Source of the DNA: Candidatus Magasanikiibacteriota bacterium
GTDB lineage: Bacteria; Patescibacteriota; Patescibacteriia; Magasanikbacterales; UBA922
Reading direction: 5' to 3'
DNA: 51,186 nt
Assembly: GCA_018650645.1 (NCBI GenBank)
Contig: JABIFP010000003.1
Location: forward strand, 1-51,186
This document shows, piece after piece, positions 27,261 to 36,235 of this stretch; position 1 is the first letter of the stretch; each line of letters opens with the position of its first letter. The notes below the pieces were generated by a model, which was given only the letters and a program-made list of their open reading frames with translations, was not told where the DNA came from and made no database searches. Position numbers and translations under genes: made by a program.

Positions 27261-28766
<1,506 letters not shown>

Positions 28767-29142: not shown

Positions 29143-29171
29143 ATTATATAGAGGCTTCGGTAAAGTGTCAA
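29143..29171 (-). promoter_or_regulatory. 16S rRNA promoter (perfect consensus)
   Basis: TTGACA-17nt-TATAAT. Confidence 0.85.
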
Positions 29172-29239: not shown

Positions 29240-29794
29240 CTATATCTTGCCAGCACCTTCTAAATCCAAAATGTATGAGGAAATATATGGCCTATAGGCT
29301 TCCTTCAATGAAGGTAAAAGTGCCTGATAACTGCCTAATTTACCCTTACAAGATGAAGCGCCACAGGCACATCTCAAATCTTTTTCAGTTTGCAGCAACA
29401 GTGATGAGTCATACCTCACGATAATCATTGCATAATCAATGGTAAGGTGCTCTCCCTTTTGAATATCACGCATGGCGACAACAACGGTACGACCCTTGAT
29501 TCCAGTATTTGGTTCACATGAATGATTCATATTTGAAAAAGGTGGCAAAGGGTCCACAAACAACCAGACATCTTCTCCATCCCAATAGATTGGAATGGTA
29601 TAAATTGACGGAACCGATACAGTAGCACCAGCCAATACGTATATCGATTCTCCTTTTTTTATATTTCTTTTTGCAAAAATACCCTTTCCTATATTTGCAC
29701 TTACTTCCTTTGTCTCAATATTTTTTTCTATATCAAAAAATGAAAATGAGCACTCTTTACTCGATAAATCTATTTGATTATCAGATACAAACAT
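29240..29794 (-). CDS. SET-domain methyltransferase with post-SET zinc site
   Basis: GKGIFAKRNIKKGE, NHSCEPN, AMRDIQKGEHLTIDY, CACGASSCKG. Confidence 0.92.
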   Translation of the reverse strand: MFVSDNQIDLSSKECSFSFFDIEKNIETKEVSANIGKGIFAKRNIKKGESIYVLAGATVSVPSIYTIPIYWDGEDVWLFVDPLPPFSNMNHSCEPNTGIKGRTVVVAMRDIQKGEHLTIDYAMIIVRYDSSLLLQTEKDLRCACGASSCKGKLGSYQALLPSLKEAYRPYISSYILDLEGAGKI

Positions 29795-29802
29795 ATGCTG
29801 TT

Positions 29803-30501
29803 TTAACGCAAATCAATTAAACGCTGCGTAGAAAGATTATATTGATGATGCTGATATTTATTCTTTGGGTTATCTAATCCAAGTAAATTATGAGCATAAA
29901 GATATCGTTCGCTTTCTAGTGGCTCCCCTGGATAGCAATTAAGTACCCACTGTTCATGATGATTGATATACGCATTAGGCAAAGACACTACTCCCTTTGC
30001 CAATAAATACAATACGGTGATTTCCTCCAAAAAGAAGTCAGCTTGCCCCTGTGTCAACCTTCTTTCCTGGGCATCTCTTTTTATAGCACGCCTAAATGAA
30101 TCATCTTTTTTGTATATTTCTTTTATCTTCTGCAAATATAACCCGAGATCTCGAAATTCTAATAGCAACTGCGCCCAAGTGAAAAAAGAAAATGATGGAA
30201 TAATCCATGCTGGATTTTTTTCAAGAAGCTTAAGCATACCGTTTTTATGAGAACTCATTTGGTTTACGTATGTATTTCTAAGTTTTCGTGCTGAAAGTGT
30301 TGCCGTATGCATATACAAATAATCTGCATACAAAAATGATAAACCAATACCTTCGGTTCTTTGAATCTTTTCACAAAGCTGCTCAATATGTTTCATGCAT
30401 GATGCTGCAGACTGAGCATTATCAATCCTCGCCATCGAAATGCCAAACAAAATCATGCCTTTTGACTTGGGCAATTGATTGATATCAAAGGAGTCATCCA
30501 T
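29803..30501 (-). CDS. Cyclodipeptide synthase (tRNA-dependent), XYP subfamily
   Basis: 232 aa; LFGISM (catalytic Ser), FLYADYLY, FFTW, FFLEEI (catalytic Glu), NCYPG (YP); motif order matches CDPS. Confidence 0.8.
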   Translation of the reverse strand: MDDSFDINQLPKSKGMILFGISMARIDNAQSAASCMKHIEQLCEKIQRTEGIGLSFLYADYLYMHTATLSARKLRNTYVNQMSSHKNGMLKLLEKNPAWIIPSFSFFTWAQLLLEFRDLGLYLQKIKEIYKKDDSFRRAIKRDAQERRLTQGQADFFLEEITVLYLLAKGVVSLPNAYINHHEQWVLNCYPGEPLESERYLYAHNLLGLDNPKNKYQHHQYNLSTQRLIDLR

Positions 30502-30519
30502 ACATGAAAATTACTTACT

Positions 30520-31227
30520 TTATTTATTTTTTCGCCACCTCTCAATTTTTCCATGATCACCGCTAAGGAGCACATCTGGCACTTTCCAGCCCTTAAAATC
30601 CACTGGCCGTGTGTATTGTGGATACTCTACTTCTACTCCTGATTCATCTACTAAATGATTATGCGATTCGTCTTTTAATGACTCTGGGTTCCCAAGGACA
30701 CCCGGTACTAATCGACTCACAGCTTCCACAATAGTAAGCGCACCAAGTTCACCACCGGCAAGCACATACGGCCCAACAGAAATTTCTTCGTCAATCATGT
30801 GGTCAACCACGCGCTGATCAATGCCTTCGTACCTGCCGCAAATAAGAACCAGCTCATCGAGTTTACTCCACTGCTGCGCTATTTTTTGATCAAACTGTCT
30901 TCCTCTAGGAGAAAGAACTACTGTGCGTGTTTTCTTTTTCAGCGATCCGTTAAATATCTTTTTTACCTTTGTAAGCCCATCAACCTTCCCAAAAGGAATT
31001 GCATCGATTGATTTCAGTGCTTTATATATAGGCTCTGGTTTCATAACCATGCCTGCTCCCCCACCATAGGGCGTATCGTCTACTGTACCGCGGGTATCTG
31101 CAGAGAATTCACGAATATTAACAGCGCTAACAGTAATTACGTCCGCCGCTTGTCCGCGTTTCAAAATGCTCTGAGACGAATAGTCTGTAATCATTTCTGG
31201 GAAAATAGTGAGTACTGAAAATTTCAT
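30520..31227 (-). CDS. trmD: tRNA (guanine37-N1)-methyltransferase
   Basis: LTIFPE, DDTPYGGGAGMVM, CGRYEGIDQRV, VLAGGE, EYPQYTRP, VPDVLLSGDH. Confidence 0.97.
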   Translation of the reverse strand: MKFSVLTIFPEMITDYSSQSILKRGQAADVITVSAVNIREFSADTRGTVDDTPYGGGAGMVMKPEPIYKALKSIDAIPFGKVDGLTKVKKIFNGSLKKKTRTVVLSPRGRQFDQKIAQQWSKLDELVLICGRYEGIDQRVVDHMIDEEISVGPYVLAGGELGALTIVEAVSRLVPGVLGNPESLKDESHNHLVDESGVEVEYPQYTRPVDFKGWKVPDVLLSGDHGKIERWRKNK

Positions 31228-31229
31228 AT

Positions 31230-31430
31230 TTAGGTGATAGGTTTGATATGAGACCAAAAACGTTCATGTAAATAATAGAACAACATTTTTGCAACGACCT
31301 CTATTGCCCCGACTTCTAGCATGGTGCTAATTTCCCCTGTAAAGAGGTATACAAGCGCCATAGTAGTAAGTGACGCAATAACTCGCCAACTGATTGTTTT
31401 GGCTAGAGAGCGCTTATGTGAGTCCGCCAT
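31230..31430 (-). CDS. DUF2061 small membrane protein
   Basis: RSLAKTISWR..E..KMLFYYLHERFW. Confidence 0.85.
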   Translation of the reverse strand: MADSHKRSLAKTISWRVIASLTTMALVYLFTGEISTMLEVGAIEVVAKMLFYYLHERFWSHIKPIT

Positions 31431-31492
31431 ATACCGCTAGATAAACATAAAAAAGTGAAAAAGGCAAGAGGGGCAGCAGCCCCTCTTTGTCT

Positions 31493-34400
31493 TTACATGA
31501 AGCAGAATCCGCAGGACCTAATGTCTAGTCCTTGCGCCTCAGCTTCTGTACGTAAGTAACTTTCATCGGAATTGAATTCTGCATTATGGGTACACACGTA
31601 TTCTGTGTCGCACTGTACACCGTTTGCTACAGGCTCAGGTTCAGGTTCTGGCTCAGGAGCACAAGATGGATCAGCACTACACTGGTTATCGTCACAATCC
31701 GTTTGGCCATTTCTATCATTATCTACCCTATCACTACAATCAAATTCCGTTTCACCACAGTCGTTTTGGAAATCATTTCTACATTCTCCACCACTACAGG
31801 AATCTTCTGTACACTGATCTTGATCTGCACAATCCGCGTCAACGCGACATTCTGGTTCTGGTTCTGGAGCACAAGATGGATCAGCGCTACACTGATTGTC
31901 ATCACAATCCGTCTGACCATTTCTATCATTATCTACCCTATCACTACAATCAAATTCCGTTTCACCACAATCGTTTTGGAAATCATTTCTACATGCTCCA
32001 TTGTGACAACTATCATTCGTACACAAGCTATTATCATTACAATCAGCATCTTGTCGACATTCTGGTTCTGGCTCCGGTTCTGGAGCAACTTCAGCCTCGC
32101 AAGCACCGCAACTATGGAACTCAGCCCATGCTGGAATGTCTTCTTGATTCATGGTGCGCTTATCGGCATCAATCCACACACACACCTGTCTTTCCTGACA
32201 CTGAGGGAATACAAATTCTGGAGCTTCTTCAATTTCTCTTTCTGGCTCAGGTTCAGGCTCTTCAACTTCATCTACAGGAATAATACATTGACCGCAAGAA
32301 ATGAATTCTGCACCTTCTGGAGCTTCACGTTTTCCATAGGATTCTTCGTTTCCTCGATGACGCACGCAGACTAATTCTTCTGCACATTGAGCAAACGCTT
32401 CCTCAGGTTCTTCTTCAATATCTAGTTCAAAAAATGCACGATTATTGTTTTCATCACTCTCTTCAACCGCTCCCAAATAATCGACTTCTACCTGAATTAC
32501 CCGCGCACTTCCATTCCTTACCGAATCAGCAATTGGTACATGTACTGTTTGCTCTGTTCCCGGCGCAATTGATGATTCAATGCGGAATCCAGGACCATCG
32601 TCTAACTCATCTGATCCTGAAGTAGCATGACTAAATACTGATACTTCCGCCGCATTTTCTCCGGTAAATTCATATATACTTCCTCTATTTTCAACGGTTA
32701 CTCGCAAAAAATCTCCAATGAGCTCAACGCGAACTGGAACTAAATCTGGAAGCTCATCATCATCTCTTGATTCACGTTGCAAGTCTGCTGTTTCTTCTTC
32801 TGACAAGAGTTCCACTTCAGCTACTTGCTCGTTAAACACATCTCTTGCTATATCATCATCTTCAAACGCTTCTAACATTAGATCAAGCGATTGATCTTCA
32901 AGCTTTACGCGCAGTTTTATTTCTCGCACAACTCGATTGGTAATGTGTTGTTGCACCACTTTTACCGCAATGCGAGTTTCATCTTTTTTCGCACGCTGTT
33001 TTACTTCTTCAAGTGCTTTAAAGTCAGCAACAGAAGCTGAACGCTCTTTCACTTTTAGTGTAAATTTGCTTCGCTCACCTTCTGACATGAAGTCAACGCG
33101 TGCAGCGACTCGTCTTGCTGCTTTTTCTTTTACTTTTTTCAATTGATTCTTCGTGGATTCTGGCGCTTGTTCTTCTAATATTTTTAACAGTGCTACTTGT
33201 CCAACAAGATCAGCATCGTCACCCGCATCTTTAGCCGTAGCGTCTTCAACAATAGCTGCAATATCATGCCGCTCTTGCACATCTGCAAGCACCTTTCCTA
33301 CTGTTTTTATAATATCCTTTTGCTCTTTTTCAAAGGCTACCTGATCTTCAACAGCGACATCCTTTGCCATAACACCAGCCACGCGAGCTGCGCGTGCCTG
33401 TGCTCGCAATCCGGCTCCAAGTATTTCTTTTTGCTCAGCCTCATCTTTTACTTTTACTGCAATTTCCATTGCGTCAGCGGCTTCTTCCATTGCAGACGCG
33501 GTATGTTTAAGCGCAACTTCACTCTTTCCTTTTTCTTTCAATTTTTTCACCTCAACCATCTTTTCTGAAGCAAATCGAAGTTTTAATTTCGTTTTCTTCA
33601 CTTTATTGAATGTAAGTGCTGATCGCACTTTTCGCATACCGGCCTTCACCACATATAATCCACTATCTGGAAGTATTCGCGGCTCATATGCATCGGCAGC
33701 ATCGTCTTCCTGGTCTTGCTGCGGCTCAAATTCAGCTTCCTGCTCAATAAATACTCTTGCGTCATCTACATCTCCCAAATCTCTCCCTTCGAAGTTGTTA
33801 CTATATGACGTTTCGGGAATATCATGATCCAAATTAATGAACATTTCTACATACGTTGCTCCTTCTGGTACGTTATTACGTACATACTCCCAATTTCCCT
33901 CTCTATCTTGGCGCAGTATTTGCTCCTCCGACTCCAAAATTCGCTCTGGGGCAGAATAACGAACATGTACGGTAACATTTCCCTGATACTCCGTGTCTAA
34001 CGTGTCATCAGCAATAATAAAGCGATGTCCTTCTTCTGTAAACGAATTATATGCAAGATAAAAGTCTGGAGCAAATCCATATGACTCACTATTATCTTCA
34101 TTTGTAAGCTCCTGAATTACGGCTTCGGGATTAACCTCTGCTTCAACGCGTGTAATATATCCAATGTTGTCTGGCGCTCTAAACTGCGCAAACCAATACC
34201 CTGACTGATGCCGCTCAGGCATATTATTTACTGCACGAGTCCATTCTCTAAGTTCCCCCACACCATACCAATTCACTCCAATTGCAGGAGCAGCTTCAGA
34301 ACGATTATATTCGTCATAGGCCCGAACCTCTATTGATCCATCATCGTTTGCGATAATTCTATCTGCATAAAAATTAGGGATTGGAAACCCTTCCCAAATA

Positions 34401-36133
34401 TTGTTTCCTTCATTGCTTTCTGCAATTTCACCATCGATATCTGCAGTGATACGCATAAGCTCTGCATCGGGATGATATCCCTGCCGCGGAAGTTCTACTC
34501 TCGCCTGCCATATTCCTGGCTCTTCCTGATCTACATAATGTCCGCTTACAAAACCAGGGTTATTCATATCGGGACCAAACCATTGTAATCCTACCAAGAA
34601 TGGTTCCGGATCAAAATCAATTGGCGCACCGTTATTTCGCATTACCACGTATGCATCGCCATCTCTAAAATCAACACTTGTAATAACAATGTCTGGTTGC
34701 GCAATTGCTCGAGCAATATTTGCTCCCATATCCTCTTGATTGATTTGTTGTCCTTCTATTTCATTTCCAAGCGCATTCACTCCTGCACCAGTTTGTAATG
34801 AGTAGTAACATTGCCACTCACTCCTGTCAGTTACACTTGCCTGGTTTTCTCCATAGAACTGTAATCGCGCTCTACGATTATTGTTTTTTGTAAGATAATC
34901 AAGCATGTCTCCATCACCAATTCCAGTAAGACAAGCTACATGATCTTCATCAGTCATCTCAAATAGCCCATAATATCGTGCAAATAAGTCACAAGTGTAG
35001 CTTTCAAATAATTCTGAGCCTGCAACATGATCTGAATCATACGTTTCCTGCAGTCGCTCTCCGCTAATAATTCTTTCTACACAGGCTATTTTCTCTTCAT
35101 AGGTCAATTGTTCTACACGACGTTGACGATATTCTTGCTCATATTCACGCGTAATGAACGCATTTTCATCAAAATACTCCTCTTGCATGTCTTCTGGTAA
35201 ATAATCATGTAATCCTCGAGCTATGAGCAAGTTTGAAGCATCTCTATCATAATAATAGTCTTCTTCAAACCACCCTTCCATCTTTGCAAATCGATCTACC
35301 GCTTGCTGACATGTTGGATTTGGATTTAGCCCATTCACAGATACATATGCCGTGCACACCTCTCTGTGATCTTGTGTTACATGAAATTGCTCAACTCCAC
35401 ATTGCAGTGCTACACAATCAGCCTTCTGAATCTCATTTAGTTCGAAATACCCGGATCTATATTCTGCTGATTCTGGAATATAGCCAGCGCGAATGCTACC
35501 ACATCTATTTTCACTTCTACCAACGGCAACATCCATTACTGCTGAACAGTATTGCTGCTGTTCCTCTAGATTATTTACATTTCTATAATCATCTGTACAA
35601 AGTACATGGGCACATCTTCTCAGTTCCTGCTGACAAGAAGCATATGCTTCTTCATCTTGCGCAGTTGAACAATTTTCAGCCACATCGTAAACATCTTCTT
35701 CAAGCTCATCAGGAAGTGCATCTGTCACCTCTCTTGCAATGCGATACTCAAGGTCAACACATACGTCATATGAACTCTCATATTGCTCACTAACAATTCC
35801 ATACCCTTCTCTAGCCCACTGCTCACAAGCCTGAGCCTGCTCCCCGCCTGGTGTTGGATCAAATGGACTACCATTAATATGATCCGCAAAGCCCCTCTCG
35901 CCATAACACATATAAAAGAGACAATCCTGCTCAGTTGGCTGATATACAGCATCAGCAAGACGTAAAATATTGGAAACTTCATCTTCTGAAAGCCCTGCAT
36001 TTTCTCCTACTTCTACTTCTGCAAAATCAAAAAAACCGGTCTGAATTTGATAAAAAGCTTGCGTTTGCGTTACCAAACCTAGTGGTAAACAAAAAGCTAT
36101 TGCAAAAAGCAATATACGAGGAATGCGCTTCAT
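31493..36133 (-). CDS. Giant secreted/surface protein (Cys-rich N-terminal region, CARDB-like domains, DUF5667-like helical region, Cys-rich C-terminal repeats)
   Basis: Signal peptide MKRIPRILLFAIAFC..TQA; PD....E..E.NN CARDB motifs; ILPDSGLY..K..RSALTF; DNDRNGQTDCDD repeats. Confidence 0.85.
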   Translation of the reverse strand: MKRIPRILLFAIAFCLPLGLVTQTQAFYQIQTGFFDFAEVEVGENAGLSEDEVSNILRLADAVYQPTEQDCLFYMCYGERGFADHINGSPFDPTPGGEQAQACEQWAREGYGIVSEQYESSYDVCVDLEYRIAREVTDALPDELEEDVYDVAENCSTAQDEEAYASCQQELRRCAHVLCTDDYRNVNNLEEQQQYCSAVMDVAVGRSENRCGSIRAGYIPESAEYRSGYFELNEIQKADCVALQCGVEQFHVTQDHREVCTAYVSVNGLNPNPTCQQAVDRFAKMEGWFEEDYYYDRDASNLLIARGLHDYLPEDMQEEYFDENAFITREYEQEYRQRRVEQLTYEEKIACVERIISGERLQETYDSDHVAGSELFESYTCDLFARYYGLFEMTDEDHVACLTGIGDGDMLDYLTKNNNRRARLQFYGENQASVTDRSEWQCYYSLQTGAGVNALGNEIEGQQINQEDMGANIARAIAQPDIVITSVDFRDGDAYVVMRNNGAPIDFDPEPFLVGLQWFGPDMNNPGFVSGHYVDQEEPGIWQARVELPRQGYHPDAELMRITADIDGEIAESNEGNNIWEGFPIPNFYADRIIANDDGSIEVRAYDEYNRSEAAPAIGVNWYGVGELREWTRAVNNMPERHQSGYWFAQFRAPDNIGYITRVEAEVNPEAVIQELTNEDNSESYGFAPDFYLAYNSFTEEGHRFIIADDTLDTEYQGNVTVHVRYSAPERILESEEQILRQDREGNWEYVRNNVPEGATYVEMFINLDHDIPETSYSNNFEGRDLGDVDDARVFIEQEAEFEPQQDQEDDAADAYEPRILPDSGLYVVKAGMRKVRSALTFNKVKKTKLKLRFASEKMVEVKKLKEKGKSEVALKHTASAMEEAADAMEIAVKVKDEAEQKEILGAGLRAQARAARVAGVMAKDVAVEDQVAFEKEQKDIIKTVGKVLADVQERHDIAAIVEDATAKDAGDDADLVGQVALLKILEEQAPESTKNQLKKVKEKAARRVAARVDFMSEGERSKFTLKVKERSASVADFKALEEVKQRAKKDETRIAVKVVQQHITNRVVREIKLRVKLEDQSLDLMLEAFEDDDIARDVFNEQVAEVELLSEEETADLQRESRDDDELPDLVPVRVELIGDFLRVTVENRGSIYEFTGENAAEVSVFSHATSGSDELDDGPGFRIESSIAPGTEQTVHVPIADSVRNGSARVIQVEVDYLGAVEESDENNNRAFFELDIEEEPEEAFAQCAEELVCVRHRGNEESYGKREAPEGAEFISCGQCIIPVDEVEEPEPEPEREIEEAPEFVFPQCQERQVCVWIDADKRTMNQEDIPAWAEFHSCGACEAEVAPEPEPEPECRQDADCNDNSLCTNDSCHNGACRNDFQNDCGETEFDCSDRVDNDRNGQTDCDDNQCSADPSCAPEPEPECRVDADCADQDQCTEDSCSGGECRNDFQNDCGETEFDCSDRVDNDRNGQTDCDDNQCSADPSCAPEPEPEPEPVANGVQCDTEYVCTHNAEFNSDESYLRTEAEAQGLDIRSCGFCFM
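31656..32075 (-). repeat. Two tandem 210-bp (70-aa) Cys-rich repeats
   Basis: Sequence at 31656 recurs at 31866; CRNDFQNDCGETEFDCSDRVDNDRNGQTDCDDNQCSADPSCAPEPEPE is identical in both. Confidence 0.9.
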
Positions 36134-36194
36134 AATATGAAGATTAAAAGATGATGAATACAAAGTATGTTCATTATACGCTTTTTGCAAAAAC

Positions 36195-36224
36195 AAAAGC
36201 AAGCGAGTTGCCCCGCTTGCTTTT
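36195..36224 (-). terminator. Terminator after fusA
   Basis: aaaagcaagcg-agttgccc-cgcttgctttt. Confidence 0.75.
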
Positions 36225-36235
36225 ATTGTTTGCAA

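What the first reader, a model, noticed from the sequence alone, without database searches (positions are those of the whole stretch)
29240..30501. Cyclodipeptide synthase paired with a SET-domain methyltransferase in a CPR genome
Seen: 29803-30501 has the CDPS motifs in order (GIS Ser22, FFLEE, CYPG). It is followed after 8 nt by a complete SET + post-SET protein and preceded after 18 nt by trmD, forming an apparent DUF2061-trmD-CDPS-SET operon; the pair looks more AT-rich than its neighbours. Established: CDPSs use aminoacyl-tRNAs to make diketopiperazines, the YP motif marks the XYP subfamily, and tailoring genes usually sit adjacent. From memory, a Parcubacteria XYP CDPS makes His-containing cyclodipeptides, and some SET proteins (SETD3) methylate histidine. 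The CDPS-associated methyltransferases I know are class I Rossmann enzymes, not SET. Inference: a minimal two-gene pathway to a methylated cyclodipeptide, possibly a host-directed signal from an organism thought to have almost no secondary metabolism.
Basis: partly seen in the sequence, partly recalled or inferred. Interest (0 to 1): 0.9.

Follow-up and report, generated by a model that had tools for sequence, protein, structure and literature searches.

The report
Divergent cyclodipeptide-synthase-like gene with dedicated SET partner
A tiny marine CPR bacterium carries, wedged between trmD and its 16S rRNA gene, a very divergent relative of cyclodipeptide synthases followed by a SET methyltransferase from a subgroup seen only next to or fused with that relative, pointing to a small, undescribed tRNA-dependent pathway.

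Summary
ORFs, spacings (18 nt, 8 nt), motifs and the SET/post-SET protein are as described, and contigs from four non-source runs bridge every junction.

The 232-aa protein ("X") is not a database-recognisable CDPS: no Pfam or NCBIfam hit. It belongs to an unannotated family (147 representatives). That family's profile reaches the XYP-type Rgry-CDPS structure 5MLP (E 3.6e-5). The ESM Atlas links it to CDPS-bearing clusters and a TrpRS-like fold.

Ser22, Glu160 and Tyr190-Pro191 are near-invariant. The catalytic Tyr178 equivalent is Phe in 141 of 147 members.

SET is not the usual neighbour: it is adjacent in 4 of 75 dereplicated loci with downstream sequence. But two natural X-SET fusions exist. 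All six linked SETs fall in one 21-row clade. None of 29 other Patescibacteria SET loci has X nearby.

X+SET is a cassette inserted at a trmD-16S junction that is uninterrupted in two relatives.

The His/SETD3 idea and "host signal" are unsupported. Chemistry is inferred, not shown.

The parts
29803..30501 (-). X: 232-aa divergent CDPS-like (XYP-like) protein. Ser22 is the putative nucleophile, Glu160 the putative base, Tyr190-Pro191 the 'YP', and Phe156 sits at the inferred Tyr178 position.
   Evidence: ORF; no Pfam/NCBIfam hit; family of 147 representatives; profile hit to 5mlp at E 3.6e-5; Atlas features and fold; residue census; hhalign to L131c at 90.7%
29240..29794 (-). SET + post-SET methyltransferase (184 aa) of the X-associated SET clade
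   Evidence: PF00856 E 2e-12; KMT2A SET 7u5v E 2.4e-8 and BurB 9l4t E 1.4e-3; Atlas 30 of 30 SET hits, TM 0.76; clade of 21 rows with SH-aLRT 99; invariant S92, C93, P95, Y121, C142, C144, C149
30520..31257 (-). trmD, tRNA (m1G37) methyltransferase; conserved upstream neighbour in the window and L008
   Evidence: PF01746 E 3.9e-54, NF000648 E 1.3e-81; synteny
31230..31430 (-). DUF2061 small membrane protein, first gene of the apparent unit
   Evidence: PF09834 E 1.1e-18
31466..31487 (.). Terminator-like GC-rich hairpin (both strands) separating the unit from the 1580-aa gene upstream
29143..29171 (-). Perfect sigma70-like promoter (TTGACA-17-TATAAT) downstream of SET, probably the 16S rRNA promoter; marks the 3' limit of the cassette
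27263..28766 (-). 16S rRNA gene. In relatives without X it follows trmD directly, so it marks the insertion site.
   Evidence: Rfam RF00177 1421.6 bits; relatives

Best explanation
X is a member of an unannotated, highly divergent branch of the cyclodipeptide-synthase superfamily, closest to the XYP subfamily. It probably takes an aminoacyl group from aminoacyl-tRNA onto Ser22, uses Glu160 and Tyr190 as CDPSs do, and releases a small aminoacyl-derived product, most likely a cyclodipeptide. The downstream SET protein belongs to a SET subclade known only next to or fused with X. It most likely uses SAM to methylate that product or the enzyme-bound intermediate. The two genes form an accessory cassette inserted between trmD and the 16S rRNA gene and are probably co-transcribed with DUF2061-trmD. 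Shown: homology, residue conservation, fusions, clade specificity, insertion. Inferred: aa-tRNA use, the nature of the product, and methylation of the product.
For: Homology: the A2 profile (68 sequences) finds only two PDB sequences at E<=10. They are 5mlp (E 3.6e-5, 198 profile positions, Ser aligned) and 5ocd, deposited as 'Cyclodipeptide synthase' (E 0.16). 5MLP is the XYP Rgry-CDPS (PMC7566563 passages). One of 68 members touches PF16715 at 5.4e-4. hhalign against four canonical Patescibacteria CDPSs gives E 3.6e-4 (probability 37%), and against the weak-PF16715 protein L131c gives 90.7%, E 1.3e-6, with FxLEE and YPG in register. In the ESM Atlas, 18 of 30 feature hits are clusters carrying PF16715 on 24-32% of members (score 0.96); the Atlas's own model has pTM 0.80 and its nearest fold is the TrpRS family (TM 0.56/0.63 over 187 residues), which matches the published class-Ic-synthetase-like CDPS fold (PMC7566563). 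Active site: Ser22 139, Glu160 144, Tyr190 145, Pro191 132 of 147. Link to SET: fusions P0026 and P0049. SET lies immediately downstream on the same strand in the window, L017 (1-nt gap), L070 (4-nt overlap) and L009 (8-nt overlap), in DNA of 36% to 68% GC. All six linked SETs fall in one 21-row clade (SH-aLRT 99), apart from 59 others. The SET-clade profile scores 212 bits on the window and at most 115 bits elsewhere in 401 genomes, and 0 of 29 other SET loci has X within about 1.5 kb. Small-molecule SET precedent: BurB (PMC12542666 abstract). Cassette: trmD-X-SET-16S here, trmD-X-HD-16S in L008, and trmD-16S directly in G295 and G267.
Against: PF16715 and NCBIfam do not recognise X. The C-terminal sub-profile alone found no CDPS. 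HMMER placed the query LEE on 'ITLEA' of 5mlp and not on its 'YFLEE', so the Glu/Tyr register rests on hhalign with an uncharacterised bridge protein and on motif identity. Phe replaces the inferred Tyr178 in 141 of 147 members, and Pro replaces Gly35 in 109 of 147, although the window itself has Gly. AlbC Y178F and G35A are poorly active (PMC3105412). SET is adjacent in only 4 of 75 dereplicated loci with at least 450 nt downstream. The window's closest relative L008 (63% identity) has an HD-like ORF in its place. Six SET-linked X rows as an exclusive clade is rejected (p-AU 5e-5). The SET's best solved relatives are histone lysine methyltransferases, so a protein substrate is not excluded. 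Context is unknown for 14 of the 21 SET-clade rows. No fold of my own, no complex model and no expression data were obtained.
Confidence: 0.5

Rival explanations
1. X has the CDPS fold and uses aminoacyl-tRNA but does not make a cyclodipeptide. Having lost Tyr178 (and mostly Gly35), it may transfer one aminoacyl group to another acceptor or release a linear product with a free amine. SET in this subgroup, or GNAT in others, would then modify that amine.
For: Phe at the Tyr178 position in 141 of 147 and Pro at the Gly35 position in 109 of 147. Y178 anchors the first aminoacyl group, and Y178F impairs acyl-enzyme formation in AlbC (PMC3105412, PMC5935735 passages). The recurrent partners are amine-modifying enzyme types: GNAT in 10 immediate-neighbour positions (7 of 78 upstream, 3 of 73 downstream), SET in 4 loci plus 2 fusions, and class-I methyltransferase in 5 loci within two genes upstream. 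Family-specific near-invariant residues (Tyr58, Tyr63, His85, Asp143, Tyr221) suggest a remodelled site.
Against: Tyr190, equivalent to Tyr202, the proton relay for cyclisation (PMC5935735), is kept in 145 of 147, together with Pro191. That is hard to explain if no cyclisation occurs. Nothing here indicates another acceptor.
Confidence: 0.25
2. The SET protein is an ordinary protein-lysine methyltransferase. Its target would be X itself or another cellular or host protein, and it does not act on X's small-molecule product.
For: The best solved relatives are KMT2A/NSD2/SMYD3 SET domains (E 2.4e-8 to 1e-4). It has the canonical NHSCxPN, catalytic Tyr and post-SET Cys triad. Stand-alone SETs are common in CPR/DPANN: 188 homologs and 42 of 401 genomes. 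A fusion would equally suit an enzyme that modifies its partner.
Against: The linked SETs form their own clade, and all six whose context is known are tied to X. A SET enzyme acting on a free amino acid is documented (BurB; PMC12542666 abstract) and is also hit by this SET (E 1.4e-3).
Confidence: 0.17
3. The adjacency is incidental: two unrelated accessory genes that landed in the same permissive site next to the rRNA operon.
For: The site is variable, with HD in place of SET in L008 and nothing in G295 and G267. Neighbourhoods of X are otherwise very diverse. Generic SETs elsewhere in the genome show no enrichment: 2 of 5 against 2 of 5 genomes.
Against: There are two fusions and four tight or overlapping same-strand junctions in genomes of very different GC. 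The SET clade is dedicated. With roughly one SET gene per genome of about 1000 genes, chance adjacency in 75 loci would be well under one (my own estimate, not from a tool).
Confidence: 0.05

Closest known systems
XYP-subfamily cyclodipeptide synthases, e.g. Rgry-CDPS (PDB 5MLP)
   Same: The only solved proteins reached by the family profile. Same order of Ser ... xFLEE ... YP(G) motifs, similar length (about 230-270 aa), and a predicted class-Ic-synthetase-like Rossmann fold.
   Different: Not detected by PF16715. Phe replaces the catalytic Tyr181/178. Most members have Pro in place of the pocket Gly. There is an extra insertion between LEE and YPG. A conserved Arg/Lys sits at the 'X40' position in 136 of 147. 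The family is found mainly in CPR and DPANN.
ParcuCDPS (CDPS 90) of Parcubacteria bacterium RAAC4_OD1_1
   Same: A CPR-derived XYP CDPS; shows that CPR organisms can make cyclodipeptides (cHP, cHE; PMC5816076 passages).
   Different: The family profile reached no solved CDPS besides 5mlp and 5ocd. Canonical PF16715 genes occur in 5 of 401 phylum genomes, none of them the 4 genomes that carry X. His specificity cannot be transferred.
CDPS-methyltransferase pairs and fusions (class-I Rossmann methyltransferases)
   Same: A tailoring methyltransferase adjacent to or fused with the synthase. Seen here for a canonical CDPS (L127) and reported for NYH CDPS fusions (PMC5816076 passage). Some X loci also have class-I methyltransferases.
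   Different: The partner here is a SET-fold enzyme, a different methyltransferase class. No such pairing was found in the held literature.
BurB (PDB 9L4T), SET-domain methionine S-methyltransferase
   Same: A bacterial SET-domain enzyme that methylates a small molecule and not a protein (PMC12542666 abstract). Hit by the window's SET at E 1.4e-3.
   Different: Much more distant than the KMT2A-type SETs (E 2.4e-8). BurB acts on free Met in DMSP synthesis and has no CDPS partner.
KMT2A/MLL-type SET + post-SET histone lysine methyltransferases
   Same: Best sequence match to solved structures. Shared NHSCEPN, DY catalytic Tyr and post-SET CxCx4C.
   Different: A minimal 150-184-aa protein with no accessory domains. 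It has a clade-specific 'YTIP' motif and a conserved C-terminal 'L..ELK.KY.GYIS.YLL' tail, and it is linked to X.

Membership tests
Cyclodipeptide synthase (Pfam PF16715) | Match to the family HMM above the gathering score | tested here: not met
   No hit at E<=1 for the protein and none at E<=10 in the whole genome. 1 of 68 family members reaches 5.4e-4.
Cyclodipeptide synthase (superfamily level) | Detectable homology to solved CDPSs | tested here: met
   A2 profile to 5mlp at E 3.6e-5 and 5ocd at E 0.16, the only two hits at E<=10. hhalign to L131c 90.7%. Against the claim: hhalign to canonical A3 gives only 37% probability, and the C-terminal sub-profile finds nothing.
Cyclodipeptide synthase | Rossmann fold like the catalytic domain of class-Ic aaRS (TyrRS/TrpRS) | tested here: met
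   The Atlas's own model (pTM 0.80) is nearest to a TrpRS-family cluster, TM 0.56/0.63 over 187 residues. This is indirect: no model of my own and no superposition on a CDPS, because structure prediction was off.
Cyclodipeptide synthase | Catalytic Ser (AlbC S37) | tested here: met
   Ser22 aligned to the Ser of 5mlp; kept in 139 of 147.
Cyclodipeptide synthase | Catalytic Glu (AlbC E182) | tested here: met
   Glu160 kept in 144 of 147. The register comes from hhalign with L131c and from the FFLEE/YFLEE motif identity seen. HMMER's own alignment placed it 12 residues upstream.
Cyclodipeptide synthase | Tyr178 (anchors the first aminoacyl group; Y178F poorly active) | tested here: not met
   Phe156 in 141 of 147 and Tyr in 2. 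This depends on the register above.
Cyclodipeptide synthase | Pocket Gly (AlbC G35) | tested here: inconclusive
   The window has Gly20, but the family has Pro in 109 and Gly in 27 of 147.
XYP subfamily of CDPS | Tyr202-Pro203 with a non-Asn residue at position 40 | tested here: met
   Tyr190 in 145 and Pro191 in 132 of 147. Position 25 is Arg in 109 and Lys in 27.
Cyclodipeptide synthase | Uses two aminoacyl-tRNAs and releases a 2,5-diketopiperazine | not testable with these tools
   Needs expression with LC-MS or an in vitro assay.
SET domain methyltransferase (PF00856) | HMM match above cut-off and SET fold | tested here: met
   47.9 bits against a cut-off of 22.4. Atlas 30 of 30 SET hits, TM 0.76.
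SET domain methyltransferase | NHSCxPN SAM-binding motif, catalytic Tyr, post-SET Cys triad | tested here: met
   H91 nearly invariant; S92, C93, P95, Y121, C142, C144 and C149 invariant in 18 clade members. Naming these as the functional motifs is from my recall.
Protein-lysine methyltransferase | Methylates lysine in a protein substrate | not testable with these tools
   The substrate is unknown. BurB shows that SET enzymes can act on small molecules (PMC12542666 abstract).

The most novel reading that the evidence does not exclude
Family X is a previously unrecognised third branch of tRNA-dependent CDPS-like enzymes, largely confined to the ultra-small episymbiotic lineages of both domains (CPR and DPANN) and exchanged between them. 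Its products carry a modifiable nucleophile, for example a Lys- or Met-derived side chain. Lys was not among the residues incorporated by the characterised CDPSs (PMC5816076 passage). Dedicated SET methyltransferases in one subfamily, or GNAT acetyltransferases in another, would then tailor that nucleophile. This would be the first SET-fold tailoring enzyme in a tRNA-dependent peptide pathway, and a natural-product route in organisms thought to have almost none.
Probability: 0.3. Interest if true: 0.85.

Novelty: new variant of a known kind. Interest (0 to 1): 0.7.

Why it matters
CPR bacteria and DPANN archaea have minimal genomes and are thought to lack most secondary metabolism. A conserved enzyme family that draws on aminoacyl-tRNA, one of the few activated building blocks these cells hold in quantity, would be a cheap way to make small molecules for life on a host.

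The family is invisible to Pfam, NCBIfam and therefore probably to standard BGC miners, so it is likely uncounted in surveys.

The natural loss of the 'essential' Tyr178 offers a test of the CDPS mechanism.

A SET-fold enzyme dedicated to such a pathway would widen the known chemistry of SET domains beyond proteins and free methionine.

All of this is directly testable by expressing two small genes in E. coli.

Tried and rejected
- **Complex prediction for X+SET:** not available.
- **The look-up of encoding contigs:** closed by its description and not called, so the contexts of 14 SET-clade proteins could not be read.
- **The search for related loci with A2:** failed for lack of a conserved stretch and was re-sent with A1. 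The pattern used (F[GP][IV]SM[SAN][RK]IxN) would miss the fused forms, so SET-linked loci are probably under-sampled.
- **Single-sequence and 13-sequence PDB searches:** found nothing meaningful.
- **C-terminal sub-profile against PDB:** only unrelated hits at E>=0.09, so the register test failed.
- **Word-indexed search with A2:** added no annotated proteins.
- **hhalign to four canonical CDPSs:** weak.
- **PADLOC and PHROGs:** nothing for either protein beyond one PHROG hit at E 0.066. The defence-system or phage reading is dropped.
- **Recent horizontal transfer inferred from AT-richness:** rejected, because GC3 is normal and L008's X is equally AT-rich.
- **Genome-level SET co-occurrence:** no enrichment, 2 of 5 against 2 of 5 genomes.
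- **RNA evidence:** no RNA holder listed.
- **Atlas call on fusion P0026:** not held.
- **Literature searches (listings only):** CDPS + 'SET domain' gave 1 unrelated paper. CDPS + Parcubacteria gave 8, from their titles and abstract starts mostly about the known ParcuCDPS or CDPS reviews and surveys. Cyclodipeptide + DPANN gave 2. CDPS + Patescibacteria gave 5. (min_terms 2) was uninformative.
Full report
**1. The observation**

The window holds four same-strand genes in a row:
- DUF2061, 31230-31430
- trmD, 30520-31257
- a 232-aa ORF, called X here, 29803-30501
- a 184-aa ORF, 29240-29794

The gaps are 18 nt (trmD to X) and 8 nt (X to the last ORF). Pfam and NCBIfam confirm DUF2061, trmD and a SET domain in the last ORF.

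X contains FGIS(22)M, DFFLEE(155-160) and CYPG(189-192). A terminator-like hairpin precedes DUF2061. A perfect TTGACA-17-TATAAT promoter follows SET, just before the 16S rRNA gene at 27263-28766.

Contigs from four non-source marine metagenome runs bridge 16S-SET, SET-X and X-trmD without a single difference, so the arrangement is not an assembly artefact.

X and SET are more AT-rich (36.2% and 36.8% GC) than 15 other genes of the window (mean 41.3%, minimum 38.1%). Their GC3 is ordinary, and the ortholog in the nearest relative is just as AT-rich (32% against 45.5% for its trmD). This is a property of the gene family, not a mark of recent import.

The genome is 1.04 Mb at 100% completeness, and its phylum-mates carry CPR names. 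CPR origin is supported.

**2. What X is**

Taken alone, X matches nothing: no Pfam or NCBIfam family at E<=1, no PF16715 signal anywhere in the genome at E<=10, and no solved structure.

It is nevertheless a member of a real family. There are 12 close relatives and 147 cluster representatives at E<=1e-3 in an exhaustive search, none with a precomputed Pfam domain.

A 68-sequence profile (A2) finds exactly two PDB sequences at E<=10. They are 5mlp (E 3.6e-5, covering profile positions 13-210 and aligning the Ser) and 5ocd, deposited as 'Cyclodipeptide synthase' (E 0.16). 5MLP is Rgry-CDPS, an XYP-subfamily enzyme (PMC7566563, passages read).

Further evidence for homology:
- One of 68 members touches PF16715 at 5.4e-4.
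- The ESM Atlas holds this exact protein. 18 of its 30 nearest clusters by features carry PF16715 on 24-32% of members (score 0.96).
- The Atlas's own model (pTM 0.80) is nearest to a TrpRS-family cluster (TM 0.56/0.63 over 187 residues). That is what the literature describes for the CDPS fold (PMC7566563).
- hhalign against four canonical Patescibacteria CDPSs is weak (37%, E 3.6e-4, central block only).
- hhalign against L131c, a Patescibacteria protein that is itself a sub-threshold PF16715 hit (22.6 bits), gives 90.7% (E 1.3e-6). The central helix, FxLEE and YPG are all in register, and X carries an extra insertion between the last two.

I put homology to CDPSs at about 0.9.

**3. Active site**

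Conservation over 147 distinct full-length family members:

| Position | Count of 147 |
|---|---|
| Ser22 | 139 |
| Glu159 / Glu160 | 145 / 144 |
| Tyr190 | 145 |
| Pro191 | 132 |
| Gly192 | 133 |
| Tyr58 | 146 |
| Tyr63 | 142 |
| His85 | 142 |
| Asp143 | 134 |
| Tyr221 | 143 |
| Phe156 | 141 (Tyr in 2) |

- G35, S37, Y178, E182, P184 and Y202 are the conserved pocket residues. Y178F and G35A are poorly active in AlbC (PMC3105412).
- Y202 is the proton relay for cyclisation (PMC5935735).

In 5mlp the catalytic pair lies in the string YFLEE. This follows from chain indices 182-186 in the alignment, which equal Y181...E185 given the one-residue offset seen at the Ser. X has FFLEE.

If these are equivalent, as the L131c alignment also indicates, X keeps the Ser, the Glu and the Tyr-Pro. 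It has Phe where every active CDPS has Tyr178, in 141 of 147 members. At the Gly35 position the window has Gly, but 109 of 147 members have Pro.

HMMER's own alignment to 5mlp put the query LEE 12 residues upstream on 'ITLEA'. A C-terminal sub-profile failed to find any CDPS. The register is therefore well supported but not proven.

X is thus a divergent, XYP-like branch that fails one defining catalytic feature. It works 'like' a CDPS, but I do not file it as a plain member.

**4. Distribution**

In an even sample of 401 genomes of the phylum, X occurs in 4 including this one. Canonical PF16715 occurs in 5 other genomes.

Pattern-based scans returned 52 genome loci and 67 metagenome loci. By record title, the 52 genome loci are 31 bacterial (mostly CPR names), 18 archaeal (mostly DPANN names) and 3 unknown. 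Five 'Gammaproteobacteria' and two 'Methanosarcinales' titles were not verified.

CPR and DPANN rows are interleaved in the tree.

**5. Is SET really a partner?**

After dereplication at 95% identity there are 89 X clusters. L009 was added by hand, because its X ORF was lost to spurious long ORFs in 68%-GC DNA.

A SET gene lies immediately downstream on the same strand in four loci: the window (identical to metagenome contig L060), L017 (1-nt gap), L070 (4-nt overlap) and L009 (8-nt overlap). That is 4 of 75 loci with at least 450 nt downstream.

A Pfam census of immediate neighbours shows no dominant partner:

| Position | Loci scanned | Main families |
|---|---|---|
| Upstream | 78 | GNAT 7, MetRS-type synthetase 4, M50 peptidase 3, Zot-like 3, class-I methyltransferase 2 |
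| Downstream | 73 | GNAT 3, SET 2 (the window and L009 were not in this set), FAD-oxidase 2, DeoC 2 |

Three results nevertheless show a specific link:
- **(a) Fusions.** Two representatives, P0026 (406 aa) and P0049 (429 aa), are natural fusions with X at the N-terminus and SET at the C-terminus. The caveat is that they are predicted proteins from metagenomes.
- **(b) A dedicated SET clade.** In a tree of 80 SET homologs, all six X-linked SETs fall in one 21-row clade (SH-aLRT 99), apart from the 59 others. The clade shares a 'YTIP' motif and a conserved C-terminal tail. Context is unknown for the other 14 rows, and P0179 is identical to L009's SET.
- **(c) Specificity from the SET side.** A profile of that clade scores 212 bits on the window and at most 115 bits in the other 400 genomes sampled. 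None of the 29 other SET loci fetched has X within about 1.5 kb.

The pairing spans genomes of 36% to 68% GC.

In the X tree, the six SET-linked rows all lie among 12 rows outside a 67-row clade (support 93/90) that has none. An exclusive clade of the six is rejected (p-AU 5e-5). The 12 rows as one clade is not rejected (p-AU 0.39), though that group was chosen after seeing the tree. This fits one SET-associated subfamily with losses.

One such loss would be in L008, the window's sister (63% identity, support 100/99), which has an HD-like ORF in SET's place. That label comes from reading the translation, not from a family search.

Generic SET genes elsewhere in the genome show no enrichment: 2 of 5 against 2 of 5 genomes.

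**6. The cassette**

- L008 reads trmD-X-HD-16S.
- The window reads trmD-X-SET-16S.
- The two genomes of the same family that lack X read trmD-16S, with only about 340-380 nt between.

X plus a variable third gene is therefore an accessory insertion in a conserved housekeeping junction.

**7. Mechanism**

Most likely (0.5): X takes aminoacyl groups from aa-tRNA on Ser22 and releases a cyclodipeptide-type product, which the SET enzyme methylates with SAM.

The steps shown are homology, conservation and linkage. aa-tRNA use, the product and the methyl acceptor are inferred.

BurB shows that SET enzymes can methylate a free amino acid (PMC12542666, abstract only). The window's SET hits BurB's structure weakly (E 1.4e-3), but it hits KMT2A-type SETs better (E 2.4e-8).

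The rival readings are altered chemistry because of Tyr178Phe (0.25), a protein target for SET (0.17), and coincidence (0.05).

The recalled His/SETD3 idea has no support. The His-making Parcubacteria CDPS is real (PMC5816076, passages; PMC7613923, abstract), but nothing ties X to it.

The recurrence of amine-modifying partners (SET, GNAT) and of MetRS genes immediately upstream in four separate tree positions are leads to the nature of the product, not evidence.

**8. Novelty**

The held literature has no biosynthetic CDPS-SET pairing and no description of this family. These were listings only, and the supplementary CDPS lists of PMC5816076 could not be opened.

I rate it a new variant of a known kind: a Pfam-invisible CDPS-like branch with a changed catalytic residue and a new class of dedicated partner.

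Interest is 0.7. The finding is specific, testable with two small genes, and relevant to how ultra-small symbionts make small molecules. The chemistry is unproven, and the SET pairing characterises one subfamily, not the whole family.

Noticed in passing
window 31493-36235 (-): A 1580-aa ORF with an N-terminal hydrophobic stretch, long acidic regions, (EP)n linkers and repeated Cys-rich modules near the C-terminus. It looks like a giant secreted or surface protein directly upstream of the unit.
   Followed up: no
window 29143-29171 (-): A perfect sigma70 consensus promoter (TTGACA, 17 nt, TATAAT) between the SET stop and the 16S rRNA gene. It is unusually canonical for a CPR genome.
   Followed up: no
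L037 3446-4201 and 5974-6741 (same in L111): Two X-family paralogs lie about 1.8 kb apart on the same strand in one locus. They sit in sister subclades of the tree.
   Followed up: no
L128 646-2079 (-) (genome G221): A canonical PF16715 CDPS is fused to a periplasmic solute-binding domain (SBP_bac_3) in a 477-aa Patescibacteria protein. Another canonical CDPS (L127) sits next to a class-I methyltransferase.
   Followed up: partly
proteins P0140, P0153, P0135: The most distant X-family members carry a C-terminal extension of 100-170 aa with a hydrophobic helix. Two of them have Gln at the first Glu of the LEE motif. They form their own clade.
   Followed up: no
proteins P0165, P0167, P0172: These 311-315-aa proteins consist of two tandem SET + post-SET modules. 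They lie outside the X-linked SET clade.
   Followed up: no
X-family tree, loci L008-L126: CPR bacterial and DPANN archaeal rows are interleaved. For example, a Buchananbacteria row sits inside a Pacearchaeota/Woesearchaeota GNAT-linked clade. This suggests inter-domain exchange among ultra-small lineages.
   Followed up: partly
L016, L046, L075, L117 (upstream of X); L009 4121-5983: A MetRS gene lies immediately upstream of X on the same strand in four loci at four separate tree positions, and a CysRS in L009. trmD precedes X in the window and L008. X is often found beside tRNA-related genes.
   Followed up: partly
L009 (12.7 kb, 67.9% GC): The X-SET pair also occurs in very GC-rich DNA titled 'uncultured Gammaproteobacteria'. 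Five X loci carry that title and two carry 'Methanosarcinales'. These labels were not verified and may be mis-binned or mislabelled.
   Followed up: no
three loci upstream of X (in alignment A6): Zot-like P-loop ATPase (PF05707) ORFs lie immediately upstream of X in 3 of 78 loci. This may indicate an inovirus-like or mobile context.
   Followed up: no
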